A stretch of DNA of 64,000 nt from an uncultured Gammaproteobacteria bacterium (GCA_964385285.1 CAYLOJ010000002.1:559-64558), one strand, 5' to 3'. Positions 8,490 to 44,920 are shown, counted from the first letter of the stretch. Program-made: numbers and translations. The notes: generated from the letters alone by a model not told the origin.

Positions 8490-8617
8490 TTCTTGAACTC
8501 TAGTTTCTACAGCGTAGTATTACGCTCTACAAACTAGGTGTGCTCCGAAATGAATCATTTCAGGAGCACCGGAGCGTTCCACCCATGTGGTCACGTTCCG
8601 TCCTCCTAGTGGGCCGA

Positions 8618-10701: not shown

Positions 10702-10767
10702 AAATCCCAGCTCCTGAGCATAAATAAAATCGCGCCCAGACGGGCGTGATTTTATTTTATTGTTCCC
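10702..10767 (+). repeat. Direct repeat copy 2 (attR-like), including a second copy of the terminator hairpin
   Basis: aaatcccagctcctgagcataaataaaatcgcgcccagacgggcgtgattttattttattgttc. It begins 12 nt after the stop of CDS 9802-10689. Confidence 0.75.
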
Positions 10768-28142: not shown

Positions 28143-28180
28143 GTAGAGACGTTGTTCGCAACGTCTCTACTTTTGTATTT
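28143..28180 (+). terminator. Rho-independent terminator (12-bp perfect stem, T-tract) after hup; member of the TAGAGACG hairpin family
   Basis: GTAGAGACGTTG-ttcg-CAACGTCTCTAC followed by TTTTGTATTT. Confidence 0.75.
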
Positions 28181-28249
28181 AGACCGATTTCAGCTTGTCT
28201 ATTCAACCCAATGTTTGTATACTAGGAACGTTATTCTTAATGCCAATCT

Positions 28250-28747
28250 ATGCAAAGTTTTCGTTATCGTTTAATTGCTAGTTCTGCTGTCATCGTATTG
28301 ATGGCCACGGGATGCGCAACTAATAGTTCTACAGTCACAACCAACGTGAATACTGCTACTGTGAACACGAATACTGTAAATCCTGCAGGGGAAACCACTT
28401 TGAGTGGTAGTGCGGATGCCAATGTGAATGATACTCCAACAGCAACTGCAGATGATGACACCACAGTGAATACCACGAAAACATTTGACGTTGTAGCTAG
28501 TCAATTTTCCTTTAGTCCAAGTACGGTTACTGTGAATCAAGGTGATACCGTAGTCATCAACCTAACTACGGAAGACGTTCCCCATGGCTTTTCCTTGCCA
28601 GATTTCGATATCAACGAGACGATTACTCCAGGCAAAACAACTACGGTAGAGTTTGTGGCTGATCAAACAGGCAGCTTCTCCTTTTCCTGTTCAGTGGCTT
28701 GTGGCGCTGGCCACAGTAGTATGCGGGGTACACTGGTCGTCAATTAA
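28250..28747 (+). CDS. Cupredoxin-fold lipoprotein with a CuA-like binuclear copper motif (CoxII-like domain)
   Basis: Lipobox LMATGC, an N/T-rich linker, then VPHGFSLPDF...FSCSVACGAGHSSMRG, which gives H...C-x3-C-G-x2-H-x2-M as in the cytochrome oxidase subunit II / N2O reductase CuA site. Confidence 0.5.
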   Translation: MQSFRYRLIASSAVIVLMATGCATNSSTVTTNVNTATVNTNTVNPAGETTLSGSADANVNDTPTATADDDTTVNTTKTFDVVASQFSFSPSTVTVNQGDTVVINLTTEDVPHGFSLPDFDINETITPGKTTTVEFVADQTGSFSFSCSVACGAGHSSMRGTLVVN

Positions 28748-28789
28748 TTTTTTTGCTAACTAATTTTTATTACTAACGTTTTTGCATCT

Positions 28790-29362
28790 ATGCGTACAAC
28801 AACCTCGTTAGCTGCTCTGTTGCTCTCCACTGTCGTAGTGGCCGGCTGCATGGGTGGTTCAGACAATGTTAACCGCCCAGCTCGTACCTCTGGTACGAAC
28901 GATACCAACAGTGTGGCCGTTAAGGACTATGCCGTTGGGGAAGAAGCTCCAGCCGGTGATATCGTCCACAAAGTAGTCTCCGTTGAACAGATGGATGTAA
29001 TTCCATCTTCAGCGACCTTACCAGAATGGGAGATCATTGCTGAAGAAACTCCAGCGGATGAAGGCTTTACATGGCTCCATATTAAAGGTGAAGTGACCAA
29101 CAACAGTAAAGAAACTCAGACCGTTAGTACTAACGGAGTCTATGTGATGGATGCTGATGAAAACCAATTTGAGGTTTCCACAGACACCACGATTTATGTA
29201 GATAGTGATTCCTCACCTGTCTACATCAGTTTGCAGCCCACTCAAACCGTTGACTGGGAAGGTTATTTTGAAGTGCCTAAGGCAGCGACTGGCTTAGTTC
29301 TCGTAGGGAACGATCTTTCGTTCTTACCAGAAAGCGAAGTCCATATCGACTTAGGATTGTAA
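28790..29362 (+). CDS. Hypothetical lipoprotein
   Basis: Lipobox VVVAGC. 190 aa. No recognised domain. Confidence 0.4.
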   Translation: MRTTTSLAALLLSTVVVAGCMGGSDNVNRPARTSGTNDTNSVAVKDYAVGEEAPAGDIVHKVVSVEQMDVIPSSATLPEWEIIAEETPADEGFTWLHIKGEVTNNSKETQTVSTNGVYVMDADENQFEVSTDTTIYVDSDSSPVYISLQPTQTVDWEGYFEVPKAATGLVLVGNDLSFLPESEVHIDLGL

Positions 29363-29378
29363 GATTTCTCCAGAGCAT

Positions 29379-29441
29379 AACACCCGGTGTCATACCGGGT
29401 GTTATAAAAAATAACCCCACACGTGATGTGTGGGGTTATTT
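29379..29441. terminator. Bidirectional terminator region between convergent genes (two hairpins; the second is flanked by an A-tract and a T-tract)
   Basis: Hairpin 1: AACACCCGGT-gtcat-ACCGGGTGTT (29379-29403). Hairpin 2: ataaaaaataa-CCCCACAC-gtgat-GTGTGGGG-ttattt (29404-29441). Confidence 0.6.
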
Positions 29442-29453
29442 AGTTATTGCGGT

Positions 29454-30233
29454 TTATTGTGCAGTGTTGGTATTGCTATTATCGTTGGTAGCATCAGCGT
29501 TAGGATCTTGTCCTTCTGGATACCCAACGACTACTTTCCCATCGGCGGTCGCTTTGACATCAAACATGACATTAGCTGTTTGGATCAATTGTGCATCGAC
29601 CGTTGCTTTGTCGCAATCATTCAAGGCATCATAAGCTTCGTTGACATACACGATTGAACCTTCACTAGTATATTCCACCCAACGTAAACGAATGCCGCTA
29701 GCAGCATTGTCATAACCAGTTTCCTCGGAAGTAGGGCCAGCGAGATCAGCCAAGATAATTTGGCCGTAGAAATCATCGCTAGGCGTGACAGCTCGTTTCA
29801 CCGGAGAAACTTCACCGCAACTCGCACCGTCTTTAGGGAAGTAAAGGGTAATAACCTCTTCACCTTCACCGGCTACAACCTCATCGGCAGTTTCATCCGC
29901 GCTGTTGGTATTGCTGTTACTGTTAGTGTTGGTATTACTATTCTCGGGTTCTACTAAACCAGCATTCGTGTTGCTGTTATTTGTATTCGCATTACTATTG
30001 CTATTACCATTGCTATTTGCGTTCTTGTTCGCATTCGCATTTTTATTCTTGTTTGCGTTGCTATTGGCAGTAGCATTTACTGTATTGGTACTTGTGTCGG
30101 TATCGTCGCTTGGGGCAATTAATAAATAAGCGAAGTAGCCGATTAGGGCCAATAAAACGGCGATAACTACGCCGAAAATTAGATAGAGTGATTTGGATTG
30201 TTTGTTCTTCATCATGGCTTCACTATACACCAT
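29454..30233 (-). CDS. Membrane-anchored protein with an Asn-rich low-complexity linker (possible GerMN-like domain)
   Basis: N-terminal TM (LYLIFGVVIAVLLALIGYFAYLLI). Linker ANSNANKNKNANANKNANSNGNSNSNANTNN, encoded by imperfect tandem DNA repeats at about 29950-30070. Globular C-terminal domain. Confidence 0.4.
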   Translation of the reverse strand: MVYSEAMMKNKQSKSLYLIFGVVIAVLLALIGYFAYLLIAPSDDTDTSTNTVNATANSNANKNKNANANKNANSNGNSNSNANTNNSNTNAGLVEPENSNTNTNSNSNTNSADETADEVVAGEGEEVITLYFPKDGASCGEVSPVKRAVTPSDDFYGQIILADLAGPTSEETGYDNAASGIRLRWVEYTSEGSIVYVNEAYDALNDCDKATVDAQLIQTANVMFDVKATADGKVVVGYPEGQDPNADATNDNSNTNTAQ

Positions 30234-30249
30234 GTGCTATCATATTGTC

Positions 30250-30975
30250 ATGTTCAAATCAACGTATTTGTTGGCTGTTTGCCTAGGGTTGAGTGTAATG
30301 GTATTAGCTGGTTGCACCCTGCCGGTATTGCAAAAGTCTAGCTCTACCACTGTGATTGCTGATCCGATAAAACAGTTTCAACAGCAGGCGGAGGATTTGG
30401 GTAATACCATAGAGTTAGAATCACAGATGCAGAATTTGTTCGCCAGCCAGGCGAAATCTGAAGATGTAAATTTTACCTACCCCATTGAAGCATACACCAC
30501 TGCACGTACTCAAAAAACGTTTGGTCAGTATATTGAACCTGACAGTGGGGATCGTTTCAGTGGTTATCACACTGGTGACGATGTTGAAGTGTCCGACCGT
30601 TCAGTAGAAGTCCCTGTCTATGTGTTAGCAGATGCCATGGTCATACAGAAGCAGGTAGTATCTGGTTATGGTGGAGTAGTCATTCTTGAATTTACTGCGG
30701 ATGCCGTCACTTACCATGCCTTATACGGTCACTTAGATTTAGCATCTGTTACTGCCGAGGTTGGTGATCAGCTTAAACAAGGTGATCAGTTAGGTGTATT
30801 AGGCGAAGATCAATCTACCGAAACGGATGGTGAACGTAAACACTTGCATTTTGGTCTTTATCCTTACACAGGCACAGAGTTATATGCTGGGTATGTACAA
30901 AATAATGCAGATTTAGTCCATTGGATTAATCCCGCTGATTTTTTACGCGAGCATCAGGCCATTGCCGCAAAATAA
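30250..30975 (+). CDS. M23 family metallopeptidase lipoprotein
   Basis: Lipobox MVLAGC. HxxxD motif (GYHTGDD) and HxH motif (KHLHFGLYP) of LytM/M23. Confidence 0.65.
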   Translation: MFKSTYLLAVCLGLSVMVLAGCTLPVLQKSSSTTVIADPIKQFQQQAEDLGNTIELESQMQNLFASQAKSEDVNFTYPIEAYTTARTQKTFGQYIEPDSGDRFSGYHTGDDVEVSDRSVEVPVYVLADAMVIQKQVVSGYGGVVILEFTADAVTYHALYGHLDLASVTAEVGDQLKQGDQLGVLGEDQSTETDGERKHLHFGLYPYTGTELYAGYVQNNADLVHWINPADFLREHQAIAAK

Positions 30976-31039
30976 TGTGATATTCAAGAGGCAATTCCGG
31001 TAAGGGCAACCCTAGGGTTGTCCCTACTTGACCATTTTG

Positions 31040-31232
31040 AGACCCTGGTTTATCCTAAGCCATACCTTTACAACTTTTAGGGGAATCCGGTTAGAATCCG
31101 GAGCTGTGCCGCAACCGTATGTCTGAATGTTAGACGAGCCGGGATACCTCTTATCGTGTATGTTCTCGAGCAAGGACAGACGATCGATGTATCCTCATCT
31201 GTTGTCGTCCTGCTCTCAGCAGGATTTTTTTA
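31040..31232 (+). ncRNA. Cobalamin (B12) riboswitch with a terminator expression platform
   Basis: Core AGGGGAATCCGGTTAGAATCCGGAGCTGTGCCGCAACCGTATG is close to the E. coli btuB leader core (AGGGAATCCAGTGCGAATCTGGAGCTGACGCGCAGCGGTAAGG, as recalled). It is followed by terminator TCCTGCT-ctc-AGCAGGA + TTTTTTT at 31208-31231, 22 nt before the start of CDS 31253. Confidence 0.7.
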
Positions 31233-31252
31233 TTCTCTATCCAAAAGCCGAC

Positions 31253-31879
31253 ATGCTAAAACGCCTCATCACAATTTATCTCCCTATGCTGGTTGTGATT
31301 AGCGTTGCGTTCATCGCTGGCCGCCAATTGTATTACGATAATGATGTCACGTTGGATGATGTAGCATTCGTGGAATCATCGAATACTCTAAATAGCAATG
31401 CAAATGTAGTGCAGCCTGCTGATGAATCATTAAATACAGAGCAGATACCGGAAGATGCAGTACTTGTAAACACTGAAACTGTAGTTGCACCGGTAGATGC
31501 TGTAGAGACTGAGCCAGTCAAGGAGATTGTGGAGCCAGTAGCGGTGACTGAGCCAGAAGCAGAGGTGGTGACACAGAATGTGGTTGTCACGATCAGTGGA
31601 CCGGGGATCACTAAACGTTGTGTGGTGACATACACAGATGATTTATCTGTACATCAGTTGATGCAGCAAGCGAGTCAACAGTGCAATTTTGCTTACCGCG
31701 TTAAAGATTATACCTCTCTCGGTGCGTTTGTGGATGAGCTGGGTGGTGTGACTTCGAGTCGCAAAGAGGGGAGATACTGGATTTACTACGTGAATGGCAA
31801 AAAAGCAAACGTCGGTGTGTCGTCCTATACAGTGGCGCCGGACGATCTGGTGGCCTGGGTGTATGAGCAAGAATATTAA
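31253..31879 (+). CDS. DUF4430 (transcobalamin-like) domain protein, membrane-anchored; putative B12-binding surface protein
   Basis: N-terminal TM (MLKRLITIYLPMLVVISVAFIAG). C-terminus GAFVDELGGVTSSRKEGRYWIYYVNGKKANVGVSSYTVAPDDLVAWVY matches the DUF4430 signature (YW-Y-VNG ... GD-V-W-Y). Lies directly downstream of the B12 riboswitch. Confidence 0.6.
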   Translation: MLKRLITIYLPMLVVISVAFIAGRQLYYDNDVTLDDVAFVESSNTLNSNANVVQPADESLNTEQIPEDAVLVNTETVVAPVDAVETEPVKEIVEPVAVTEPEAEVVTQNVVVTISGPGITKRCVVTYTDDLSVHQLMQQASQQCNFAYRVKDYTSLGAFVDELGGVTSSRKEGRYWIYYVNGKKANVGVSSYTVAPDDLVAWVYEQEY

Positions 31880-31897
31880 TTAGTTAATTGATTAGTA

Positions 31898-33433
31898 GTG
31901 TATTTTATGAAACGTTATTTACTCAGCCTGCTCATGTTCGTAGTCGCTAGTCCGGCTGCGGCTAGTAGTTATATTCAAACTAATCTGCGCGTTGAGACTG
32001 CCGACGAGACAGTGTATGCCGGTGATGTCTACATCAGTTCCGATGGTTGCGCAGTACGCGACACAGATGGCGTGAAACATCAGATTGATGGTGCTGCAGC
32101 CGTCTGTGCGTTAAAAGCGGCTGCAACGCTAGGTGGCTTTGAGTATGCATTGCAAGATTCCAGTTACGGTTTATACCTAACGAGTGTGGATGGTCATGCT
32201 GCCACGAGTGCCGACTATTGGTCCTTCTTTGTGAACTATACCGTCGCTTCAACCGGCTTAACCGATTACACTTTGAGTAATGGTGACAATGTGATTTTGT
32301 CATTAGGCGGGTATCCCAATAATGCTTTAGAATTAAAAGTGCCTAGTAAACAAGTATTGGTCAATGAAAAATTGGTAGTGCGGGTGAAATCTAATGGTGA
32401 ACCGGTCAGTGGGGCAACGGTCCATTTTGGAGATGTGACGACGCAGACTGATAGTTTAGGAAAGGCTCGCTATACACCAACCGATACCACAAATGGTTTG
32501 GAGGTGTATGCTACTGCAGACGGAGCTACGCGTACTCCGACTGCAAGTATTCGTGTGATGCGCCGCTATACAGAGAATACTAGAGTGAACGTTGCTAATC
32601 AGCAGACGATGTTAACAGCAGCCGCAGATTTTTTACTGGCTCGTGTCGATGCCGATGGCATGATCTCGGGTAGTCAGAGTGTGACCGATTGGACAGCAAT
32701 TGCGTTTGCCAATGCAGGCATTACGGTTCCCGCAGCTATGCAAACTGCGGTCTTAGCTTACGATCCAACCATTGAGGTTGCCTATGCGACCAATGAAATC
32801 GCGCGTCATATTTTGGCTGTTGAAGCATTGGGCTATGATGCGACCGATCAAAACGGCGTCAATTATGTAGCCCGCTTGCTCAATACAAAGGCGCACGGTC
32901 AATTTGGTGATACTGCCTACGTCAATGATGATCTCTACGCTGGCTTAGCGCTATTGGCCGCTGGTGTTGCCAGTGATGATGCGGATGTATTGCGTGCTGT
33001 CACTGCTGCCAAAGACAGTCTGAATAGTGACGGTGGATTATCCTATGCTGTGGCGTTAGACGAAAGTGATAATGATACCACTGCCATTTTTGTACAGTTG
33101 CTTAGTAACATCGGTGATAATTCTAAGGCGTATCGCCAGGCAGTGCAGTATCTGCTCGATCAGCAAAACTATGATGGGGGTTGGGGCTACGATAATCATG
33201 GATTATCTAACTCCTCAAGCACAGCGGTAGTCTTACAGGCCTTGCATGCAGCTGGGTATACGCCTAATAAAGTACGCAGTAATCACCGCACAGGTTACAA
33301 CTTCTTAGCCTCGATCCAAAATAGTAATGGAGCTTTTGATTATGACGTGCTCGGCTCGTATAGTTACAAGACCTTAAATTCTGAAGCCGCCATTTTGGCC
33401 CTGGCCCACGCTTGGCTAGGTATGGTAGACTAA
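31898..33433 (+). CDS. Secreted protein: N-terminal DUF4430-like domain, CarboxypepD_reg-like domain, C-terminal prenyltransferase/squalene-oxidase-like alpha-alpha toroid repeats
   Basis: Signal peptide. The N-terminal block ending SADYWSFFVNYTVASTGLTDYTLSNGDNVILSLGGY is DUF4430-like. QW-type repeats (QQNYDGGWGYDNHGLSNSSSTAVVLQALHAAGY) are typical of the prenyltransferase-like toroid. Confidence 0.5.
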   Translation: MYFMKRYLLSLLMFVVASPAAASSYIQTNLRVETADETVYAGDVYISSDGCAVRDTDGVKHQIDGAAAVCALKAAATLGGFEYALQDSSYGLYLTSVDGHAATSADYWSFFVNYTVASTGLTDYTLSNGDNVILSLGGYPNNALELKVPSKQVLVNEKLVVRVKSNGEPVSGATVHFGDVTTQTDSLGKARYTPTDTTNGLEVYATADGATRTPTASIRVMRRYTENTRVNVANQQTMLTAAADFLLARVDADGMISGSQSVTDWTAIAFANAGITVPAAMQTAVLAYDPTIEVAYATNEIARHILAVEALGYDATDQNGVNYVARLLNTKAHGQFGDTAYVNDDLYAGLALLAAGVASDDADVLRAVTAAKDSLNSDGGLSYAVALDESDNDTTAIFVQLLSNIGDNSKAYRQAVQYLLDQQNYDGGWGYDNHGLSNSSSTAVVLQALHAAGYTPNKVRSNHRTGYNFLASIQNSNGAFDYDVLGSYSYKTLNSEAAILALAHAWLGMVD

Positions 33434-33437
33434 ACCT

Positions 33438-34025
33438 ATGATTCACACTCCAAAAGATTTCAAACACTTAGTTGGCCAACTTCCTGGCATGACTGATCGT
33501 CAAGTGGAAACCCATTTAGGCTTATATGCGGGTTATGTTAAGAAGCTCAATGAAATTCAGGACAAGCTCAAGACGGTTGATCCAGCCGATAGTAACTATA
33601 GCTTTGGTGCGTTTTCCGAATTAAAACGTCGTGAAACGGTTGCTTTCAATGGTTCTTATCTCCACCAAGCATATTTCGAAAACATGACGCCGGCTAAAAC
33701 CGAAGTATTATCAAGCTTTCATGCTGCAATTGAGCAGAGTTGGGGTACTTGGGATAAGTTCGTGGCTGATATCAAGGGTTCAGCAGCTTCAACTCCAGGC
33801 TGGGTGATTTTGACGAAGAATCAAGTAGATGGATTGCTGCACACCTATATCATGTATGAGCATCATGTAGGCTTTCCAGTCCACAATAACGTTATCATGG
33901 CGTTAGATTGTTGGGAACATGCCTTTGCCATCGATTATGGTACTGATAAAGCCAAATACGTGGAAAATTTCTTGAGTGTGGTCGATTGGAATATTGTCGC
34001 TGAACGGTTTGCTGCACTGAAGTAG
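33438..34025 (+). CDS. sod: Fe/Mn superoxide dismutase
   Basis: VAFNGSYLHQAYFENM and DCWEHAFAIDYG are the classic Fe/Mn-SOD metal-ligand motifs. 195 aa. Confidence 0.85.
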   Translation: MIHTPKDFKHLVGQLPGMTDRQVETHLGLYAGYVKKLNEIQDKLKTVDPADSNYSFGAFSELKRRETVAFNGSYLHQAYFENMTPAKTEVLSSFHAAIEQSWGTWDKFVADIKGSAASTPGWVILTKNQVDGLLHTYIMYEHHVGFPVHNNVIMALDCWEHAFAIDYGTDKAKYVENFLSVVDWNIVAERFAALK

Positions 34026-34040
34026 TCAGCAGACAGATCA

Positions 34041-34075
34041 ATAGAGACGTAGCTAGCTACGTCTCTATTTTTTTA
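34041..34075 (+). terminator. Rho-independent terminator after sod; TAGAGACG hairpin family
   Basis: ATAGAGACGTAGC-ta-GCTACGTCTCTAT followed by TTTTTTT. Confidence 0.75.
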
Positions 34076-34127
34076 GCGAGGTTTCTATTTAGGCTTTTTT
34101 TCAATTCGTGTTATACTAAAGCCCGTT

Positions 34128-35189
34128 ATGCTCACTGATCAGCCGGTTTGGCAAGCTTTATTTAATCACGTGCGCGAAGCCGTAGTTGTGATCGATAAAA
34201 ACGAGAAGATCGCAGATTGCAATGGAAGTTTTGTAGACTTGGCGCAGCAAGATCAAGCTGCAATGATTGGCAAAAGCTTGGACGAGATTTTACCATTACT
34301 GCAACCGAGCAGTAATCTCTCGGCTGCTTGGCAATATACACCTACGCATCAGTGGGTGACTACGCAAAAATTCAAACGGCCGAATAAGCTGGAGCAGGTG
34401 TCTATTGGTTTTCAAGTGGTGAAAACCGAAACAGACGATGAAGTCACAACCTTAGTGTTAATTCGTGATTTGACCCGCGAGCAAGAGCTCATGGAGCTGC
34501 GTTCTGAGTTTGTTTCCATTGTTTCGCATCAATTACGCACTCCGGCTTCTGCAGTGAAATGGTACTTAGAAACTTTAATCGACAATCGTCGCGGCAACGA
34601 ACTCAATGAATGGCAAGTAGATAAGCTACACCAAGCCTATCAAAGTAATGAACGCATGATCTCACTGATCAATGATCTACTGAATGTATCACGTTTAGAT
34701 TCTGGAAAATTCCTATTAAAACCGACCGAGGTATCGCTTTATAAATTATTCGAAGAGGTGAAGGACGAACTCTATCATTTTGCGCATGCACATAATGTTG
34801 ATATCGTGAATAAAGCTCCAGCCGATTTACCTGTGGTCTCGGCAGATAGGGATAAAGTCCGTGAGGTGATCTTAAATTTAGTGAATAACGCCATTAAGTA
34901 TAGTCCTCCTGGTCATCGTGAAGTGGTGATTAGTACACGCATCCAAGACGGTTTTGTGGAGAGCAGCGTACAAGATCAAGGCATTGGGGTTCCAGCTAAA
35001 GATCAGGCCCATTTATTTGAAAAATTTTACCGCGCTGATAATGCCATTGAATCACAAACCGAAGGCTCTGGCTTAGGCCTATATATTGCTCGTGAAATCG
35101 TCCGCCTCCACGGCGGTGATATTTGGCTTACTTCTAAAGAGGGAGTAGGAACCACAGTCTATTTTTCATTACCCATTTATGCCCATTGA
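34128..35189 (+). CDS. Cytoplasmic PAS-domain sensor histidine kinase
   Basis: No TM segment. H-box SHQLRTPASAVKWYLETL. N-box and G-box LNLVNNAIKYS, GSGLGLYIAREIVRLHGGDIW. Confidence 0.8.
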   Translation: MLTDQPVWQALFNHVREAVVVIDKNEKIADCNGSFVDLAQQDQAAMIGKSLDEILPLLQPSSNLSAAWQYTPTHQWVTTQKFKRPNKLEQVSIGFQVVKTETDDEVTTLVLIRDLTREQELMELRSEFVSIVSHQLRTPASAVKWYLETLIDNRRGNELNEWQVDKLHQAYQSNERMISLINDLLNVSRLDSGKFLLKPTEVSLYKLFEEVKDELYHFAHAHNVDIVNKAPADLPVVSADRDKVREVILNLVNNAIKYSPPGHREVVISTRIQDGFVESSVQDQGIGVPAKDQAHLFEKFYRADNAIESQTEGSGLGLYIAREIVRLHGGDIWLTSKEGVGTTVYFSLPIYAH

Positions 35190-35583
35190 TTTCAAATCCT
35201 ACACTATATTAATCGTCGAAGATGAATCCTTCTTATCCAAAGTGTTAGCGGAACGGATGGAAGATGAAGGATTTGGTCGCATTACTGTGGCTGGAAATGG
35301 CGAAGAAGCATTAGAACAGGTGAAGGCGCATATCCCCAACATCATTTTATTAGATATGATTTTGCCACGCATGAATGGTTTTGAGGTCTTAGAGCACTTG
35401 CAGGCTGATCCTAAATTCAAAAAAATTCCCGTATTAGTACTGTCGAATCTTGGTCAAGATCAAGATATTGAACAGGCTAAAACACTTGGTGCTACCGACT
35501 ACATCGTCAAAAGTAATTTCTCGTTACAGAAAGTTGTAGAAAAAATTGTCACTATTTTGTCAGCGACCACTCCTAAAGCTTAA
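35179..35583 (+). CDS. Receiver-only (CheY-like) response regulator
   Basis: ILIVEDE...LLDMILPRMNGFEVL...VLSNLG...TDYIVKS. 134 aa with no output domain. Overlaps the kinase stop. Confidence 0.75.
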   Translation: MPIDFKSYTILIVEDESFLSKVLAERMEDEGFGRITVAGNGEEALEQVKAHIPNIILLDMILPRMNGFEVLEHLQADPKFKKIPVLVLSNLGQDQDIEQAKTLGATDYIVKSNFSLQKVVEKIVTILSATTPKA

Positions 35584-35588
35584 CGTGT

Positions 35589-37259: not shown

Positions 37260-37262
37260 CCT

Positions 37263-38327: not shown

Positions 38328-38329
38328 TT

Positions 38330-38776
38330 ATGGGCGTGGCCCGGGGTTTTTCTTACATTCAACTCCTACTCGTCATCACCATGTTGGCGGTATTGGCTGC
38401 AGTGGCTTCGCCGTATTATTTATCGTGGCAAACTCGTCAGCAAGTGCGTAGTACTAGTGCGATGTTATGGTCAGATCTTCACTATGCGCAAAGTCGAGCC
38501 ATGCAACTTGAACAATCGGACGCATGGGGCGTGCATATAAATCAGAGCCAACATGAATATGTGATTTTTCATGGTTCTACTTATGACAGTAGCGATCTCT
38601 ATAACGAAACAATTACCTATTCAGACGGCGTGACGATTACACCAGATACAGACATTGCATTTGCAGGTTTAACAGGCGCAGTTGCTAGTGACCTTACCTT
38701 AACCATTACGGCTAATGCCTTACCGAGTGAAAGCCGAACCATTACGATCAATGAAGAAGGTCTCATTTCACAATAA
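38330..38776 (+). CDS. Prepilin-type N-terminal domain protein (minor pilin/pseudopilin; Gln rather than Glu at +5)
   Basis: MGVARG^FSYIQLLLVITMLAVLAAVASPYY. Confidence 0.45.
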   Translation: MGVARGFSYIQLLLVITMLAVLAAVASPYYLSWQTRQQVRSTSAMLWSDLHYAQSRAMQLEQSDAWGVHINQSQHEYVIFHGSTYDSSDLYNETITYSDGVTITPDTDIAFAGLTGAVASDLTLTITANALPSESRTITINEEGLISQ

Positions 38777-41700
38777 TTCATCCGGGATATTAATCGTTGA
38801 GGCGGTCATTAGTATTGCTTTATTTGTGATATTTGCAGCCGGAGCGATCTACCTTTTAACTGCTTCTATTTTAACTAGTCGCACCGCACAACGTCATGCC
38901 ACAGCAGCAGCTTATGCGACCGAAGCAATTGAAGCAGTACAAACCATTGACCGGTTAGCTTGGAATGCATTAGCGGATAGTCCAGATAGTACATACGGCT
39001 TGGCTCTATCTGGTGATGATTGGACGCTCACTGCTGAGCCAGATCATCCTGATCTTGCTGGAGACTACACGCGCACCATTCAAATCAGTGATGTCTATCG
39101 TGATAGCAGTAATCTGATCACGGATACGGAGACGGGAAATACATTCGATCCTCATACACGCAAGGTCAATGTTACGATCGATTGGTCAAATGATACTGGT
39201 ACAGCACAGAGTCTAACCACTGCTACCTATTTAACCGATTGGGATGACTCGGCGTTGCAAGAGGATCTGGTGACCGATTGGACAGCGGGAACAGTTGATC
39301 ATTTGCGGGTCAGTAATCTAGATGATGGCGAACTGCAAATAGTACAACCCACTTTAGAGATCGGCACCGTCACCGCCACCAATAGTTGGCAGACCATTAC
39401 GTTATCCAATGAGTATGACGAGGCGGTTGTCGTAGCAAGTGTGTTAGATGGTAATAACCCAAATTCACCGGTGAGTGTACGGGTGCGCAACGTTACGGCC
39501 ACCACCTTTGATCTGCGCTTACAATTTCCAACTGATAACTTTGCACCTAGCACCACGAATAGTGAGCAGGTCAATTATATGGTCATTGAAGCTGGTGTCT
39601 GGACACTGGGAGATGGTAGTACAAAAATTGAAGCGGGGATTGTTCCGTCTGTTTCGCGCGTGAATTGTTCTACCTGTGGTAGCTGGAATCAGGGCACAGA
39701 TGTCTATTTTCAGAGTGGCTTTAGCACGGGTCCTGTAGTGTTACATCAAGTGATGACTGAGAATGATGCTTCGTGGATTACCACGTTTGCGTCGGATGAT
39801 ACCAATGCAGCACTGCCACCTGGCACAGATGGATTTCAAGTGGCATTAAATGGTGCTGAGGTGACTGCTGCGCATAGTGCCGAAGATATCGGCTATATCG
39901 CTTTTCAAAGTGAAACGACAGATCGTTTTGAAGGAGTTAAATTTGAAACCGATCTGACTGGCAATACGGTACGTGGTGCAACGGATGTGCATCGGGTTGA
40001 AAATTTTGATCAAACTTATACTGCCGCACCCATTGTGTTGACTAGCATGTTAACCGCACGTACTACGGAAGGTAACTGGGCTATGTTAGATAGTGTCACA
40101 GCCACGCGTGTCACGCTTTATGCAGATGAAGATCAAACCCTAGATGCAGAACGCACGCATGCTGTTGATTACGCTGGCTATGTGACCTTTGCGACAACCG
40201 GTACGTATTATTTAAACGCGGCCATTACTGCGTATGATGAACCACCCATGGAAGTGGGAGTGATCCGCGGCAGTGCGTCGGGACATATGGAGGTGGGCAC
40301 GACCACGGCGTCGAGTAGTTGGTCAACCATTACATTAACGAATACATACACTAAGCCAGTGGTGATTGTGAGTTTATTGGATGGCAATAATCCGAATAGT
40401 CCAGTTTCCACGCGCGTCAAGAATGCCAGTGGCAATAGTTTTGAGGTGCGTTTAGATTTTCCTAACGATCGCTTTGCGCCGGTCACTACGAATAGTGAGA
40501 CGGTCTATTACATGGTTGTGGAGGCTGGTGTTTGGTTAATGGGTGATGGTAAAACAAAGGTGGAAGCCAATATTGCTGAAGATGTTTCTCGGGTGAACTG
40601 TTTTACCTGTGGTTCATGGAATAATGGTACGCAGATTGTACACACCAGTGGTTACAGTGCCAATCCCGTATTTTTGCATCAAGTGATGAGTGAGAATAGT
40701 TCAGCTTGGATCAGCTCCTTTGCTTCCAATAGTACGGATTATCGTAGCCCACCAGGCACGAATGGTTTTCGCATTGCACTGAACGGTGCTAGTGTCACCT
40801 CCACCCATGCCGCAGAAGACATCGGTTATGTGGTAATGGAGACAGAAAAAGTGGACACTGCTAATAGTATTCAGTATGAGACAGATACCACAGGGATTAG
40901 TGTACGTGGCTTCGACGATGCGCGTTACAGTGAAAGTTTTGATCAAGCCTATACTACAGCTCCATTAGTATTGGTTTCACAGTTAGGCATGCGTGGCACC
41001 GAGGGAAGTTGGGCGATGATAGATAGTATTACTACTACCACCCTCACTATGTATGAAGATGAGGATCAAGCAACCGATCGTGAACGGTCGCACCAAGCGG
41101 AATATTACGCGTATTCGGCATTTGCATCCGCGGGTAGCTTCACTCTAACGGATCAGACGTTTTTGCAAAATCCAGTGAGTATTTCTTTGAATAATACCTA
41201 CACGAATCCCGTGGTCATCACGACTCCATTTTTTACGAATGATCAAAATTCGCCAGCGTCAGTACGGGTGTATGATGTGACTAGTAATAGTTTTACAGCA
41301 AAACTAGATTTTCCAACTGATCGTTTTACACCTACCAATACCAGCTATTCTAACGATGTGTATTATATGGTGATTGAAGCGGGGACCTGGCAAATTGGTG
41401 ATCTGAAGATTGAAGCTCATGTGGACAATATTTCTACTGTGAATTCATTAACGAATGGATGGACCGGCACAACCACAACTTTTGATCATGCCTTTACGGC
41501 TGCACCCATTGTATTGCAACAAGTGATGAGTAATAGTGATACGGCCTGGATTACCACCTGGCTCGCGCGCACGGCTGATCGCACTAATCCTCCTTCCTAC
41601 ACCTCAATGCAGATCGGTTTGAATGCAGCTGAGGTGGCCACAAGTAATGCGCATGGTCCGGAAGATGTGGGTTGGGTCGCCTTTTCGAACATTGGGTCTG

Positions 41701-42338
41701 GCACTGTAGATGCATATGATTTTAGAACTTTCTTTCAGTTAGATTTGCCGTTTGGGCATCAAAATGGTTGCTATACATTTACACCTGGTGATACCTATGC
41801 TGATCCGATTCCACTCATTTCACAAATGAGCATGGATGGAGCGGAGGGTTCGTGGCCTTCGATCTGTTCATTATCTACTACGACGGTTGGTGTGCACGTG
41901 GAAGAAGATGATTATTTAGATAGCGAGCGCTCGCATACAGATGAGGCCATTGGCGCTATTGTCTTTGATGGTGCATTTGCCTATGCAGGCAGCACTAACC
42001 CAGATAACCATACCAGTGGTACCTATGAATCTCCGGTATTAGGTGATAGCGCACTCTGGCGCAACTTCAATATTGTGCAATGGGTAGAAGATATCGATTG
42101 TGCCAATTGTGCAATCGAAATCCAGGTGCGGACAGGCGATTCTGTTGGGGCAGTCGGCAGCGCTACCTACATTGGTCCGGATGGTACTGCTGATACCTAT
42201 TATGATAGCTCTGCTGGGGCACTACTTAGCTTAGAACATCTGAGCCAGCCCTATATTCAGTATCAGGTCACCATGCGTGGTTCTACGGTGCGTTCGCCAA
42301 TATTTTACGATGCTACCATTTGGGGCTATGCACAATAA
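38751..42338 (+). CDS. Giant pilin-like protein (1196 aa) with a prepilin N-terminus and three tandem ~280-aa internal repeats (putative tip adhesin)
   Basis: MKKVSFHNNSSG^ILIVEAVISIALFVIF has Glu at +5. Repeats at about 39365-40205, 40297-41125 and 41166-41960 share W-TI-L-N-Y-PVV...GNNPNSPVS-RV, YMV-EAGVW-GDG-TK-EA, SRVNC-TCGSWN and FDQ-YT-AP-VL...TEG-WAM-DS. Confidence 0.5.
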   Translation: MKKVSFHNNSSGILIVEAVISIALFVIFAAGAIYLLTASILTSRTAQRHATAAAYATEAIEAVQTIDRLAWNALADSPDSTYGLALSGDDWTLTAEPDHPDLAGDYTRTIQISDVYRDSSNLITDTETGNTFDPHTRKVNVTIDWSNDTGTAQSLTTATYLTDWDDSALQEDLVTDWTAGTVDHLRVSNLDDGELQIVQPTLEIGTVTATNSWQTITLSNEYDEAVVVASVLDGNNPNSPVSVRVRNVTATTFDLRLQFPTDNFAPSTTNSEQVNYMVIEAGVWTLGDGSTKIEAGIVPSVSRVNCSTCGSWNQGTDVYFQSGFSTGPVVLHQVMTENDASWITTFASDDTNAALPPGTDGFQVALNGAEVTAAHSAEDIGYIAFQSETTDRFEGVKFETDLTGNTVRGATDVHRVENFDQTYTAAPIVLTSMLTARTTEGNWAMLDSVTATRVTLYADEDQTLDAERTHAVDYAGYVTFATTGTYYLNAAITAYDEPPMEVGVIRGSASGHMEVGTTTASSSWSTITLTNTYTKPVVIVSLLDGNNPNSPVSTRVKNASGNSFEVRLDFPNDRFAPVTTNSETVYYMVVEAGVWLMGDGKTKVEANIAEDVSRVNCFTCGSWNNGTQIVHTSGYSANPVFLHQVMSENSSAWISSFASNSTDYRSPPGTNGFRIALNGASVTSTHAAEDIGYVVMETEKVDTANSIQYETDTTGISVRGFDDARYSESFDQAYTTAPLVLVSQLGMRGTEGSWAMIDSITTTTLTMYEDEDQATDRERSHQAEYYAYSAFASAGSFTLTDQTFLQNPVSISLNNTYTNPVVITTPFFTNDQNSPASVRVYDVTSNSFTAKLDFPTDRFTPTNTSYSNDVYYMVIEAGTWQIGDLKIEAHVDNISTVNSLTNGWTGTTTTFDHAFTAAPIVLQQVMSNSDTAWITTWLARTADRTNPPSYTSMQIGLNAAEVATSNAHGPEDVGWVAFSNIGSGTVDAYDFRTFFQLDLPFGHQNGCYTFTPGDTYADPIPLISQMSMDGAEGSWPSICSLSTTTVGVHVEEDDYLDSERSHTDEAIGAIVFDGAFAYAGSTNPDNHTSGTYESPVLGDSALWRNFNIVQWVEDIDCANCAIEIQVRTGDSVGAVGSATYIGPDGTADTYYDSSAGALLSLEHLSQPYIQYQVTMRGSTVRSPIFYDATIWGYAQ

Positions 42339-42342
42339 CTGG

Positions 42343-42840
42343 ATGATTAAATTACGTCATGGTTTTTCACTCTTTGAGGTGATTGTGTATATTGCGATCA
42401 TTAGCGTGGTGATGACCGCAGTCTTAAGTATCGTTGCACGCAGTGTGTTAAATCGTGTGAAAGCGGAGGCGCTGTTTAGTGTCACTAGTAGTACTCGCTT
42501 TGCGATGGAACGCATGGTGCAAGATATCCGGGCCGCTGCGGATATTGATGAGACAGATTTAGCCAGTAACGTACTGACGGTCGAATCAGCTCAAGGGGTG
42601 ATTCGGCAGTACGCGGTGATTAATGATCAATTAACTGTCTCTACCAACGGCGCTACTCCCATTGCCCTCACCCCAGACAACCTGATGGTGACCGAGTTTA
42701 GCCTGGCTGATCGCACTACAGTGGGGACTGCTACAACCGCGGTGGAAGTGACCTTAACACTGGAAACGGTCAGTACTAATCCTAGCCCTGAATACCATGC
42801 CGATTTTAGTTTAGAAACTACTGCTACGAGTCGTTTATGA
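42343..42840 (+). CDS. Prepilin-type pseudopilin
   Basis: MIKLRHG^FSLFEVIVYIAIISVVMTAVLSIVA has Glu at +5. Confidence 0.55.
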   Translation: MIKLRHGFSLFEVIVYIAIISVVMTAVLSIVARSVLNRVKAEALFSVTSSTRFAMERMVQDIRAAADIDETDLASNVLTVESAQGVIRQYAVINDQLTVSTNGATPIALTPDNLMVTEFSLADRTTVGTATTAVEVTLTLETVSTNPSPEYHADFSLETTATSRL

Positions 42841-43235
42841 AAATCACGCGAATTTTACCACCAGGCTATGCCGCCTTAATCACTGTAGTGATGGTCATGT
42901 TAACCGTTACAGCCATTGGCTTCACTCTCACGGTGCTTAGTGCTGATAATCTATTAAGTACTCTGCGGTATGATGCCGGCATCCAAACACAAGCTGTGGC
43001 AGACAGTTGCGCATATGAGGCCGCTTTACAGATGCGTGATCTCGGGTTGGCCTATGTGGGTACACATACACTGACTATTGGTGAAGATCAATGCACGATG
43101 ATCGTGACTAATACGAGTGGAACAATCTTGGAGGTAGCGATTGATGCACAGCATGACCAATATCATCGTTTAGTAGAACAGACCATGGACGTCAGTGATG
43201 ATCGTATCTTGCTCTGGCAGGAAGTAGGCGATTAA
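42837..43235 (+). CDS. Hypothetical minor pilus component (membrane-anchored)
   Basis: N-terminal hydrophobic segment (LPPGYAALITVVMVMLTVTAIGF), non-canonical for prepilin. Sits in the pilus operon. Confidence 0.3.
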   Translation: MKITRILPPGYAALITVVMVMLTVTAIGFTLTVLSADNLLSTLRYDAGIQTQAVADSCAYEAALQMRDLGLAYVGTHTLTIGEDQCTMIVTNTSGTILEVAIDAQHDQYHRLVEQTMDVSDDRILLWQEVGD

Positions 43236-43250
43236 GCTACAATTATTTTC

Positions 43251-44279
43251 ATGCGCATCTTAGGACTCAATTTATCTGATGCTTCCGCCGAACTTGTCGA
43301 ATTGAGTGGTGGTTTATTGCAACGTCCAGGTTGGACCACACATCTTCGAGTTGAGCTATCGGAAGGGATCGTAACGAACGGCATTATTCATGATGTCAGT
43401 CTATTGGCGAGCAAGTTAAAAGGGCAGTTTCGCCCGGGCAATTTAGCGATGTCCATTCCTGAATCTCAAGTGTATTCCCGTTGGTTGCGTTTTCCTGCCA
43501 AGACAAAACTCAGTGAAATTCGCGCGACGATCGCTCAACATGCGGCTGAATATTTTCCGTTTGAGGCTCATGAGATTGTGTTTGATTGCGTTTCCGCTGG
43601 CCAACACGGAGAATCGCAAGATGTCTTTACAGCAGCTGTACCACATTTGGTTTTGAATAGCTACCGTGAATTTGCTAAGGCTTTGGATTGTACATTAGTT
43701 AGGTTAGAACTAGAGTCACTTAGTTCTGCCCGCGCGACTCTACCTAGTTTGCCTAAGGTCGGCGCTACGCTATTATTAGATATTGGAGCACGGACTACAA
43801 TCGCCAGTTGGTTTACTGATCAGGGTTTGCGTTTCACGTTCAATGTGCCGTTGGCAGGGCAATATTTTACCGAACGGATTCAGCAAGGCTTAAAATTGAC
43901 TGCACTAGAAGCCGAGCGTCTGAAGCAAACACAGGGACTCAGCGGAAAAGTGGAATCAGTGTTAGTTGCGGCTTTAGAACCATTGGTGAAGTCGCTGAAT
44001 GAGGGGATTAGTTATGTGCAATCAGAGTGGCAGATTGATACCAAAGCAATCGTATTGATTGGCGGGTCTTCCCAGTTGCCAAAATTAGCGGATTATCTAG
44101 CCACTCAATTTCAGGTTACTACCAACTTACCACCAGCGTTGCCCTGGCAAACCACATATGGTATGGTATCTGCGTCAGATCAGGAGGGGAATTATATGCT
44201 TAATGCCGTAGGGTTAGCCCTAGGTGAGCTAAAGGCCTATCGTGACTGGCCAACCGTTAACTTTTTAAATACAAAATAA
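43251..44279 (+). CDS. pilM: Type IV pilus assembly protein PilM (actin-like ATPase)
   Basis: N-terminus MRILGLNLSDASAELVEL. C-terminal LIGGSSQLPKLADYLATQF. Actin/Hsp70-like fold within the pilus operon. Confidence 0.7.
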   Translation: MRILGLNLSDASAELVELSGGLLQRPGWTTHLRVELSEGIVTNGIIHDVSLLASKLKGQFRPGNLAMSIPESQVYSRWLRFPAKTKLSEIRATIAQHAAEYFPFEAHEIVFDCVSAGQHGESQDVFTAAVPHLVLNSYREFAKALDCTLVRLELESLSSARATLPSLPKVGATLLLDIGARTTIASWFTDQGLRFTFNVPLAGQYFTERIQQGLKLTALEAERLKQTQGLSGKVESVLVAALEPLVKSLNEGISYVQSEWQIDTKAIVLIGGSSQLPKLADYLATQFQVTTNLPPALPWQTTYGMVSASDQEGNYMLNAVGLALGELKAYRDWPTVNFLNTK

Positions 44280-44282
44280 GTT

Positions 44283-44765
44283 ATGAAAGTTCTCCGTAAG
44301 TTCCGTCGTGGTTTTACACTCGTTGAATTGCTCATCGTGATTGCAGTGATCTCTATTTTGGCAGCGGTTGCCTTTGTGGCTATTGATCCAGCTACGCGTA
44401 TTAATCAAGCTCAAGATTCAGAGCGTTGGAGTGCAGTGAATGCGTTAATGGATGCATTTTTAGATTCCACAGTTGATAATGATGGCAACTATCCAGCCGG
44501 TGTCTCGGCCAATGGTACAGTACATATGATTTCTAGCAGCGGTACTTGCACAGACGCAATTTCTGGTTGCCCAACAGCCGTCAGTACCTGCACAGATTTT
44601 GATTCCTTAGTCACCGATGGTTATATTGCAAGTTTGCCGGCAGACCCTGATGGTGTCACCACATATGGTGGCGGCTATGGATATACGCTATCGGTTGCTT
44701 CGAATGGCATCGTTTCCGTTGCCTCCTGTGGTGCGGAAGAAGACACGATTGAAGTGTCCCGCTAA
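44283..44765 (+). CDS. pilA: Type IV major pilin
   Basis: MKVLRKFRRG^FTLVELLIVIAVISILAAVAFVAI is the canonical class III signal with Glu at +5. Cys pair in the C-terminal domain. Confidence 0.8.
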   Translation: MKVLRKFRRGFTLVELLIVIAVISILAAVAFVAIDPATRINQAQDSERWSAVNALMDAFLDSTVDNDGNYPAGVSANGTVHMISSSGTCTDAISGCPTAVSTCTDFDSLVTDGYIASLPADPDGVTTYGGGYGYTLSVASNGIVSVASCGAEEDTIEVSR

Positions 44766-44790
44766 ATAGTCCAATCATCATCATAAAGAA

Positions 44791-44821
44791 ATAGAGACGT
44801 AGTATTACGTCTCTATTTTTG
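44791..44821 (+). terminator. Rho-independent terminator after pilA; TAGAGACG hairpin family
   Basis: ATAGAGACGTA-gtat-TACGTCTCTAT followed by TTTTT. Confidence 0.75.
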
Positions 44822-44836
44822 CTTGCTGTTCGAATG

Positions 44837-44920
44837 TGCCGCGAGAGAGAATCGAACTCTCATGAGTGTGAACCCGTACGATTTTGAGTCGTATGCGTCT
44901 ACCAATTCCGCCATCGCGGC
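44837..44920 (-). tRNA. tRNA-Leu (anticodon CAA), class II with a long variable arm
   Basis: The reverse complement reads GCCGCGA-tg-GCGG-AATTGGTAGA-CGC-A-TACGA-CTCAAAA-TCGTA-long variable arm-GAGAG-TTCGATT-CTCTC-TCGCGGC-A. 84 nt. Confidence 0.8.

What the first reader, a model, noticed from the sequence alone, without database searches (positions are those of the whole stretch)
28143..44821. Recurrent terminator hairpin family sharing the core TAGAGACGT ... ACGTCTCTA (three perfect copies plus a degenerate one)
The intrinsic terminators after hup (28143), sod (34041) and pilA (44791) all use the same 9-11 bp stem core, (A/G)TAGAGACGT / ACGTCTCTA(T/C), with different loops. A decayed relative (ctacagCGTAGTATTACGctctac) follows CDS 7737-8489 at about 8500-8525.

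Independent terminators do not normally share stem sequence. A reused palindromic word suggests either a REP-like dispersed element that doubles as a terminator, or a sequence-specific signal placed as inverted pairs, as DNA-uptake sequences are in Neisseria and Pasteurellaceae.

The window also encodes competence-type machinery (type IV pilus operon, dprA), which fits the uptake-signal reading.
Basis: seen in the sequence. Interest (0 to 1): 0.55.

Follow-up and report, generated by a model that had tools for sequence, protein, structure and literature searches.

The report
REP-type palindromes serving as terminators
Three gene-end hairpins with the same stem are real, but they are copies of a published repeat family (REP palindromes tied to RAYT transposases), here in a tiny Patescibacteria genome and placed to act as terminators; they are not a DNA-uptake signal.

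Summary
TAGAGACGT/ACGTCTCTA occurs six times in the window, only as three perfect inverted pairs (0.3 word hits expected). Each pair lies 16-26 nt after a stop codon (HU, Fe/Mn-SOD, a pilin-like gene) and is followed by a T-run.

The stem is not private to this genome. The palindrome GTAGAGACGT-N8/9-ACGTCTCTAC, with a variable but self-complementary centre, occurs in Cyanobacteria, Chloroflexi, Acidobacteria, Bacteroidota and a Patescibacteria (Uhrbacteria) genome. It flanks, and is inserted in frame into, RAYT (TnpA_REP) genes in Fischerella and Uhrbacteria, and it flanks one in a Bacteroidales MAG. Quentin et al. 2018 list GTAGAGACGTTGCATGCAACGTCTCTAC as a "double-foot" REP of RAYT subclass 2.4. 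Window copy 1 differs from it only in the 4-nt loop.

The window organism is a Patescibacteria bacterium near Kerfeldbacteria. Relatives keep [G/A]TAG...CTA[C/T]-footed hairpins at the same sites but with different inner stems.

The REP-like reading is supported. The uptake-signal reading is not: there are no single copies, none lies in a gene, the 7-mer core is at chance level, and the palindrome spans many phyla. No RAYT lies in the window, and genome-wide copy number could not be measured.

Verdict: new member of a known kind, modest interest.

The parts
28143..28170 (+). REP-type palindrome GTAGAGACGTTG-ttcg-CAACGTCTCTAC with both GTAG/CTAC feet, 26 nt after the HU gene stop and followed by TTTTGTATTT. 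It is the presumed intrinsic terminator of the HU gene.
   Evidence: The 12-nt arms are identical to the published Cyanothece subclass 2.4 REP.
34040..34069 (+). REP-type palindrome AATAGAGACGTAGC-ta-GCTACGTCTCTATT (ATAG/CTAT feet), 16 nt after the SOD stop and followed by a T-run. It is the presumed terminator between SOD and the His-kinase gene.
   Evidence: A promoter-like TGTGTTATACT lies downstream and is conserved in relatives.
44787..44820 (.). REP-type palindrome AAATAGAGACGTA-gtat-TACGTCTCTATTT with an A-tract before and a T-tract after, between the convergent pilin-like gene and tRNA-Leu. It is a presumed bidirectional terminator.
   Evidence: The sister species L261 has GTAGAGACATGCCATGGCATGTCTCTAC at the orthologous site.
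8499..8537 (+). Possible decayed relative, CTAGTTT-CTACAGCGTA-gtat-TACGCTCTAC-AAACTAG, nested in an outer 7-bp stem, 10 nt after the stop of ORF 7584-8489. It has no T-run.
   Evidence: It shares the 12-mer CGTAGTATTACG with hairpin 3.
27833..28117 (+). HU-type DNA-binding protein gene, upstream of hairpin 1.
   Evidence: PF00216.
33438..34025 (+). Fe/Mn superoxide dismutase gene, upstream of hairpin 2.
44283..44765 (+). Pilin-like gene with an N-terminal methylation motif, the last gene of the type IV pilus operon, upstream of hairpin 3.
   Evidence: PF07963.
44836..44920 (-). tRNA-Leu(CAA), convergent on hairpin 3.

Best explanation
The three hairpins are copies of a REP (repetitive extragenic palindrome) of the GTAG-tagged 'double-foot' type. 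This is the family whose cognate enzyme is the RAYT/TnpA_REP tyrosine (HuH-Y1) transposase of subclass 2.4 (Bertels group 4).

Such palindromes fold as hairpins in single-stranded DNA. They are thought to be recognised through the 5' GTAG foot and multiplied or replaced by the RAYT acting in trans. That is why unrelated sites in one genome carry the same stem.

In this Patescibacteria genome the copies sit just after stop codons and directly before T-runs. In the transcript they therefore form 12-14-bp stem-loops that most likely act as Rho-independent terminators and 3'-end protectors. The copy between the pilin gene and tRNA-Leu would work in both directions.

Shown: the sequence identity with the family; the family's physical link to RAYT genes in other genomes, including another Patescibacteria; and the position and terminator-like anatomy in the window.

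Inferred: that a RAYT (present now or in the recent past, elsewhere in this genome) spread them, and that they actually terminate transcription.
For: 1. Same family.
- Window copy 1 has 12-nt arms identical to the REP GTAGAGACGTTGCATGCAACGTCTCTAC that Quentin 2018 list for a Cyanothece subclass 2.4 tnpA_REP. They differ only in the loop.
- Copy 2 (TAGAGACGT-AGCTAGCT-ACGTCTCTA) differs by 2 nt from the common variant with centre agcatgct.

2. The cross-phylum family is not chance.
- In 129 non-redundant genome hits the centre is 8 or 9 nt in 127, although 2-16 was allowed.
- The centre pairs are complementary in 86-100% of cases.
- The unconstrained flanking bases are G and C in 116 of 129 (raw counts 124 and 119 of 130).

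3. Physical link to RAYT.
- Fischerella: the palindrome lies 30 bp upstream of the gene, in frame inside it, and as a variant just downstream.
- Cand. Uhrbacteria (Patescibacteria): it lies 40 bp upstream and in frame inside the gene.
- Bacteroidales MAG L024: the RAYT is flanked on both sides.
- 77 of the 120 best homologues carry the palindrome-encoded peptide VETL[QH]CNVST.
- The protein family is RAYT: many members are named RayT by JGI, 17 of 21 match Pfam Y1_Tnp, and the only PDB hit of the profile is 4ER8 TnpA_REP.
- Quentin 2018 describe exactly these features (double foot, in-frame insertion, Cyanobacteria plus Bacteroidetes plus scattered phyla) for subclass 2.4.

4. REP-like evolution in relatives. 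Orthologous HU, SOD and pilin sites keep [G/A]TAG..CTA[C/T]-footed hairpins with different, fully compensated inner stems, for example GTAGAG-CCATGC.., ATAGAG-GCTGG.., TAGGGAC-AGAGC.. and GTAGAGAC-ATGC... Only the window genome has the same 9-10-nt arms at three sites.

5. Terminator anatomy.
Against: - No RAYT gene is present in the 64-kb window or in the fetched DNA of relatives (HMM and tblastn). The rest of the genome could not be retrieved.
- Only 3 copies were seen, so the 'high copy number' that defines REPs is unproven here.
- Two of the three copies have ATAG/CTAT rather than GTAG/CTAC feet. Under the E. coli model, which requires GTAG, these should be poor RAYT substrates.
- In the one Patescibacteria genome with a RAYT (Uhrbacteria), the gene carries a TGA at the conserved Trp, and 20 kb around it holds no dispersed copies.
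- The T-run is not part of the element elsewhere: only 20 of 121 A/T-footed copies have one. Its presence at all three window copies needs either insertion into old terminators or selection.
- Termination itself is untested.
Confidence: 0.8

Rival explanations
1. DNA-uptake signal. The 9-10-mer would be a species-specific tag recognised by the type IV pilus/competence machinery, and it would accumulate as inverted pairs that also terminate transcription, as DUS does in Neisseria and USS in Pasteurellaceae.
For: - The type IV pilus operon and dprA are present.
- The inverted pairs sit at gene ends.
- Patescibacteria are thought to depend on DNA uptake (background knowledge).
Against: - All 6 word copies are in hairpins, none is in a coding region, and the 7- and 8-mer cores are at chance level.
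- Density is about ten times lower than DUS/USS.
- The canonical word is missing from about 90 kb of syntenic DNA of seven related lineages.
- The identical palindrome occurs in many unrelated phyla, attached to RAYT genes.
- The centre co-varies to keep pairing. That points to a constraint on a hairpin, not on a duplex word.
Confidence: 0.04
2. Domesticated or relic hairpins with no active transposase. The stems descend from REPs but are now kept alike only by selection for terminator function, or by gene conversion among terminators, in a genome that has lost its RAYT.
For: - No RAYT was found in the window or in relatives' loci.
- Two copies have ATAG feet.
- All three copies have T-runs.
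- Orthologous sites in relatives also carry footed hairpins, so the sites are old.
- Quentin 2018 note genomes with REPs but no tnpA_REP.
Against: - Selection for termination does not require identical 9-10-nt arms. Relatives terminate at the same sites with quite different stems.
- Identity to the cross-phylum consensus at three sites suggests recent copying from a canonical source.
Confidence: 0.13
3. Operator for a dimeric DNA-binding protein. Under this reading the palindromes would be regulatory sites shared by the HU, SOD and pilus transcription units.
For: The arms are perfect inverted repeats at three loci.
Against: - The sites lie at 3' ends, not at promoters.
- The spacing between arms varies (8, 8 and 6 nt), and in the wider family the centre is variable but always self-complementary. 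That fits a hairpin rather than a duplex operator.
- The distribution is cross-phylum and linked to RAYT.
Confidence: 0.02

Closest known systems
'Double-foot' GTAG REP sequences of TnpA_REP subclass 2.4 (RAYT group 4), Quentin et al. 2018, BMC Genomics 19:475. Examples: GTAGAGACGTTGCATGCAACGTCTCTAC (Cyanothece) and GTAGAGACGCACGGCCGTGCGTCTCTAC (Chloroflexus aggregans).
   Same: - Same sequence: the arms of copy 1 are identical.
- Same 28-30-nt perfect palindrome with a 5' GTAG and a 3' CTAC.
- Same variable, self-complementary centre.
- Extragenic, at gene 3' ends.
   Different: - The host is a Patescibacteria with a very small genome; no paper in the library searched links REP/RAYT with this group.
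- Two copies have ATAG/CTAT feet.
- All three copies abut T-runs.
- No RAYT was seen in the available 64 kb.
Classical REP/BIME and REPIN elements of Enterobacteria and Pseudomonas (GTAG-tagged REPs; Di Nocera 2013; Bertels & Rainey 2011).
   Same: - Short GTAG-tagged palindromes downstream of genes.
- Alike within a genome but different between related species.
- Proposed roles in termination and mRNA stabilisation.
   Different: - Classical REPs have an unpaired GTAG at one end only and usually occur as inverted doublets (REPINs).
- These are single, fully symmetric hairpins in which GTAG pairs with CTAC.
Neisseria DUS and Pasteurellaceae USS inverted pairs.
   Same: A short word is reused as inverted pairs that form terminators, in an organism with a type IV pilus and DprA.
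   Different: - There are no single copies, no copies in genes, and no word over-representation.
- The word is not clade-specific.
- The family is associated with a transposase, not with an uptake receptor.
Small dispersed repeats (SDR) of Nostoc (Elhai et al. 2008, Genome Res 18:1484).
   Same: Both are very small repeats, often nested in hairpins, in heterocystous cyanobacteria. Many hits come from those genomes.
   Different: This could not be compared: the paper is not held and I do not recall the SDR sequences. It remains a lead only.

Membership tests
GTAG-tagged REP, 'double-foot' class (RAYT subclass 2.4) | A short (20-40 nt) palindrome able to form a stable hairpin. | tested here: met
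   The elements are 28-30 nt with perfect stems of 12-14 bp and fold at -19 to -21 kcal/mol.
GTAG-tagged REP, 'double-foot' class (RAYT subclass 2.4) | [quoted passage not shown] | tested here: inconclusive
   The feature is met by copy 1 (GTAG...CTAC). Copies 2 and 3 have ATAG...CTAT. In the wider family 116 of 129 non-redundant copies have G/C feet, and A/T-footed copies are also common in metagenomes.
GTAG-tagged REP, 'double-foot' class (RAYT subclass 2.4) | Sequence match to REPs documented next to subclass 2.4 tnpA_REP genes. | tested here: met
   The arms GTAGAGACGTTG/CAACGTCTCTAC are identical to the listed Cyanothece REP. The same palindrome lies at or inside RAYT genes in L132, L052/L135 and L024.
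GTAG-tagged REP, 'double-foot' class (RAYT subclass 2.4) | Many dispersed, mostly extragenic copies in the genome. | not testable with these tools
   There are 3 copies in 64 kb, all extragenic. The rest of the genome (an NCBI contig of 132,960 bp and others) could not be fetched.
GTAG-tagged REP, 'double-foot' class (RAYT subclass 2.4) | A cognate RAYT gene in the same genome. | not testable with these tools
   None is present in the window. Absence from the whole genome cannot be judged.
Intrinsic (Rho-independent) terminator | A G+C-containing stem-loop directly followed by a T-run, downstream of a stop codon on the coding strand. | tested here: met
   The hairpins start 16-26 nt after the stops and carry T4-T7 tracts.
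Intrinsic (Rho-independent) terminator | Transcripts end at the T-run. | not testable with these tools
   No transcript data were available.
DNA uptake sequence (DUS/USS type) | The single word is strongly over-represented genome-wide, including inside genes. | tested here: not met
   Within the window the word occurs only in the three hairpins. The 8-mer with one mismatch gives 37 against 33 expected, and the 7-mer occurs twice elsewhere.
DNA uptake sequence (DUS/USS type) | The word is shared by close relatives and restricted to the clade. | tested here: not met
   The canonical palindrome is absent from L122, L125, L128, L259, L260 and L262/L263. It is present in many other phyla.
DNA uptake sequence (DUS/USS type) | A sequence-specific uptake receptor, or a measured uptake bias. 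| not testable with these tools
   The organism is uncultured and no assay is possible.

The most novel reading that the evidence does not exclude
In this Patescibacteria lineage the palindrome would have a second job as a self-recognition tag for DNA taken up through the type IV pilus/ComEC/DprA route. That would make it a REP co-opted as an uptake signal in organisms that live on scavenged DNA. The evidence here does not exclude this, because only 64 kb of the genome was visible and nothing was measured. Every test that could be run went against it.
Probability: 0.03. Interest if true: 0.8.

Novelty: new member of a known kind. Interest (0 to 1): 0.3.

Why it matters
- It explains why three unrelated genes end in the same hairpin: the cause is a mobile or concertedly evolving palindrome family, not a signal designed for those genes.
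- It extends a REP family documented in Cyanobacteria, Bacteroidota and Chloroflexi to Patescibacteria (CPR). These are ultra-small, streamlined genomes where selfish repeats are not expected to be tolerated unless they are useful.
- The copies sit exactly where terminators are needed, and related lineages keep footed hairpins at the same sites. This is a tidy example of REPs being used as, or replacing, terminators.
- About two thirds of the closest RAYT genes carry the palindrome in frame. That offers a simple reason for the near-identical REP sequence in distant phyla: the repeat travels inside its transposase gene. This reason is my inference.
- For annotation: such shared stems should not be read as uptake signals without genome-wide word counts.

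Tried and rejected
- Literal sequence searches of the literature returned only primers and guide RNAs.
- The Elhai 2008 SDR paper is not held. Di Nocera 2013 text and supplements do not contain the sequence.
- A regex for HuH...Y motifs found only a group-1-like Y1 transposase in L036 and missed the real RAYTs, because of the in-frame insertion and a TGA codon. tblastn and an HMM found them.
- Pfam on the single Uhrbacteria and Bacteroidales RAYTs was below threshold, and a single-sequence PDB search was empty. The profile of 21 homologues worked.
- L131 (RAYT P0122) has no such palindrome nearby, so not every member of the protein family uses this REP.
- The metagenome scan with A/T feet gave 120+ loci, but none from relatives of the window organism and none with a RAYT.
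- The viral scan gave only 32 loci, about 20 copies of canonical form, and no RAYT. Phages are not an obvious carrier.
- An exact-protein look-up of the window's HU found nothing. The SOD look-up returned only a 2.1-kb Logan contig identical to the window.
- Rfam has no family at the hairpins.
- A second pair of look-alike hairpins (9556-9591 and 10722-10757) turned out to be a duplicated tRNA-Asn 3' end plus its terminator around a small insert, not a REP.


Full report
**1. The observation**

TAGAGACGT occurs six times in the window, counting both strands. That is 0.30 expected, and no shuffle out of 100 reached six. All six are the arms of three perfect hairpins:
- 28143-28170: GTAGAGACGTTG-ttcg-CAACGTCTCTAC
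- 34040-34069: AATAGAGACGTAGC-ta-GCTACGTCTCTATT
- 44789-44818: AAATAGAGACGTA-gtat-TACGTCTCTATTT

The hairpins start 26, 16 and 26 nt after the stop codons of three genes:
- an HU gene (PF00216);
- an Fe/Mn superoxide dismutase gene (PF02777);
- a pilin-like gene with an N-methylation motif, at the end of a type IV pilus operon.

The third hairpin faces a convergent tRNA-Leu. Each is followed directly by a T-run and is picked up by the terminator scan. As RNA they fold at -19 to -21 kcal/mol, z -4.2 to -6.7. They are three of about nine long-stem hairpins in the window.

The word itself is not enriched. The 8-mer with one mismatch is found 37 times against 33 expected, and the 7-mer core occurs only twice outside the hairpins. 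No further ungapped degenerate copy exists.

It shares a 12-mer, including the loop, with hairpin 3 and looks like the family with one A:T pair deleted. It has two foot mismatches, no T-run and a weak fold. I treat it as a plausible relative only.

**2. The organism**

The SOD's closest named relatives are:
- 'Patescibacteria group bacterium' (84% identity);
- ACD_43C groundwater bins (81%);
- Candidatus Kerfeldbacteria (75%).

ParA gives the same picture. Gene order is conserved with those relatives: HtrA-like protease, HU, cupredoxin, DUF4352, DUF4430 genes, SOD, His-kinase, response regulator, type IV pilus operon, ParAB, RelA/SpoT, TopA, DprA. So the window comes from a CPR/Patescibacteria bacterium near Kerfeldbacteria.

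Only a 2.1-kb Logan contig identical to the window could be retrieved from the same genome.

**3. The stem is not private to this genome**

Most hits were Nostocales and other Cyanobacteria. There were also Chloroflexi/Anaerolineae, Acidobacteria, Bacteroidales, Saprospiraceae, Fibrobacteres, a Desulfuromonas, a gammaproteobacterial MAG and a Candidatus Uhrbacteria (Patescibacteria).

A uniform-composition estimate gives roughly 130 chance hits for the whole collection, so the count alone proves nothing. The anatomy does:
- Of 129 non-redundant copies, 127 have a centre of 8 or 9 nt although 2-16 was allowed.
- The centre pairs are complementary in 86-100% of copies, against 25% by chance.
- The unconstrained flanking bases are G and C in 116 of 129 (raw counts).

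The element is therefore a 28-29-nt perfect palindrome, GTAGAGACGT-NNN(c)atgNNN-ACGTCTCTAC. The commonest centres are tgcatgca, tacatgta, agcatgct and ttcatgaa. Window copies 1 (TGttcgCA) and 2 (AGCtaGCT) fit this layout closely.

A metagenome scan for A/T-footed copies, like window copies 2 and 3, also ran to its limit. The hosts had 27-65% G+C. These copies are often extended by complementary flanks: 29 of 114 have four or more further pairs.

Viral contigs hold only 32 loci in all.

**4. What the family is**

The 5' GTAG foot is the hallmark of REP sequences (Di Nocera et al. 2013, PMC3733652). Quentin et al. 2018 (PMC6006769) describe a class of REPs for TnpA_REP subclass 2.4 (RAYT group 4). 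These are 'double-foot' REPs carrying 5' GT[AG]G and 3' C[TC]AC. [quoted passage not shown] Their supplementary table lists two examples under subclass 2.4:
- GTAGAGACGTTGCATGCAACGTCTCTAC (Cyanothece);
- GTAGAGACGCACGGCCGTGCGTCTCTAC (Chloroflexus aggregans).

The first has the same 12-nt arms as window copy 1.

I checked the association independently in three lineages:
- Uhrbacteria locus L052. [quoted passage not shown] The same arrangement is seen in contigs from other samples.
- Fischerella. The palindrome lies 30 bp upstream, in frame inside the gene, and as a variant just downstream.
- Bacteroidales MAG L024. The homologue is flanked on both sides.

The protein family is RAYT:
- It has 2155 homologues, many named 'REP element-mobilizing transposase RayT'.
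- 17 of 21 sampled members match Pfam Y1_Tnp.
- The profile's only PDB hit is 4ER8, E. coli TnpA_REP.
- 77 of the 120 best homologues contain VETL[QH]CNVST.

That last figure offers a simple reason for the near-identity of the REP in distant phyla: the repeat rides inside the gene. This reason is my inference.

**5. Evolution at the three sites**

Relatives show the following at the orthologous sites:

| Site | Relative (protein identity to window) | Hairpin at the site |
|---|---|---|
| HU | L259 (85% SOD) | GTAGAG-CCATGC-cata-GCATGG-CTCTAC |
| HU | L125 (79% SOD) | ATAGAG-GCTGG-gtaatat-CCAGC-CTCTAT |
| HU | L128 (75% SOD) | AACA-GTAGGTA...TACCTAC-TGTT |
| HU | L122 (84% SOD) | an unrelated hairpin |
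| SOD | L260 (86% SOD) | TAGGGAC-AGAGC-agt-GCTCT-GTCCCTA (a compensated A:T to G:C change against the window) |
| SOD | L125 (79% SOD) | CC-GTAGTGA...TCACTAC-GG |
| SOD | L259, L128, L122 | none of this kind |
| Pilin/tRNA-Leu | L261, sister species (ParA 97% aa; 82% nt over 3.3 kb) | GTAGAGAC-ATGC-catg-GCAT-GTCTCTAC; its contig begins exactly there |
| Pilin/tRNA-Leu | L262 (ParA 91% aa) | a plain AAAAATCCCCT...AGGGGATTTTT terminator |

So footed hairpins at these gene ends are old in the clade. Their inner stems turn over with full compensation. Only the window genome carries the same 9-10-nt arms, the canonical cross-phylum sequence, at three sites. Alike within a genome and different between relatives is how REP families behave (background knowledge from the REP/REPIN literature).

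**6. Mechanism**

Best reading (0.8): these are REP copies of the RAYT subclass 2.4 family. They sit where, together with the adjoining T-runs, they act as intrinsic terminators. The copy between the pilin gene and tRNA-Leu would be bidirectional. The identity with the family and the family's link to RAYT are shown. Mobilisation in this genome and termination are inferred.

Weak points:
- No RAYT is in the window or in relatives' loci.
- Two copies have ATAG feet.
- Only three copies are visible.
- T-runs are not part of the element elsewhere (20 of 121 copies). The three window copies either replaced older terminator hairpins or were selected.

A variant reading is relic or domesticated hairpins in a genome that has lost its RAYT (0.13).

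The uptake-signal reading (0.04) fails each test that could be run: single copies, genic copies, word enrichment, sharing with relatives and clade restriction. A duplex operator (0.02) does not fit the 3' position, the variable spacing or the co-varying centre.

**7. Verdict**

The finding is real and correctly located. The family is already published. What is new is its presence in a Patescibacteria genome, the terminator placement, and the site-by-site comparison with relatives. I rate it a new member of a known kind, interest about 0.3.

Noticed in passing
window 9536-9591 and 10699-10757 (insert 9592-10698): A direct repeat of about 55 nt consists of the 3' end of tRNA-Asn (AATCCCAGCTCCTGAGCA) plus its terminator hairpin AAATAAAATC[A/G]CGCCC..GGGCGTGATTTTATTT. 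It brackets a 1.1-kb insert with a single ORF (9802-10689; DUF6602 plus a SEC-C motif) in a region of raised G+C (52%). This looks like a small island integrated at tRNA-Asn with an att duplication. It explains the window's second pair of look-alike hairpins.
   Followed up: partly
window 31081-31148 (+): Rfam finds a cobalamin riboswitch aptamer (38 bits, gathering score 31.5) just upstream of and overlapping the start of ORF 31127-31879. The orthologous genes in relatives carry DUF4430.
   Followed up: no
L052 130-783 (-); also L135-L138: The Candidatus Uhrbacteria RAYT has a TGA exactly at the conserved Trp of the WQ motif. The same 176-aa truncated product is called on 14 contigs from several samples. 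This is either a fixed pseudogene or a read-through/recoded codon.
   Followed up: partly
alignment A1; proteins P0121-P0240: 77 of the 120 closest RAYT homologues contain the peptide VETL[QH]CNVST, the in-frame translation of the REP palindrome. In the 21-sequence alignment C, V, S and T of this peptide are at least 90% conserved. The REP is effectively part of the protein family.
   Followed up: yes
window 34100-34127; same position in L125, L128, L259, L260: An extended -10-like motif, TGTGTTATA[CA]T, about 10-15 nt upstream of the His-kinase start is conserved across relatives (TGTTATACT in L125). Meanwhile the terminator hairpin just upstream of it changes or is absent.
   Followed up: no
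L261 2-29: The Logan contig of the sister species starts exactly at its copy of the palindrome (GTAGAGACATGCCATGGCATGTCTCTAC). An assembly break there hints that the element is multi-copy in that genome.
   Followed up: no
L103 57-82: In a gammaproteobacterial MAG the palindrome lies inside the open frame leading into a DNA-ligase-like ORF (my identification, by eye only). It may be an in-frame genic REP insertion of the kind Di Nocera 2013 report for replication and repair genes.
   Followed up: no
window 4706-6040, 10946-13729, 24964-26640, 58808-63247: RpoD is short (444 aa). Several large ORFs (927, 558 and 1479 aa) have no hits or only marginal family hits, as is common in Patescibacteria.
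   Followed up: no
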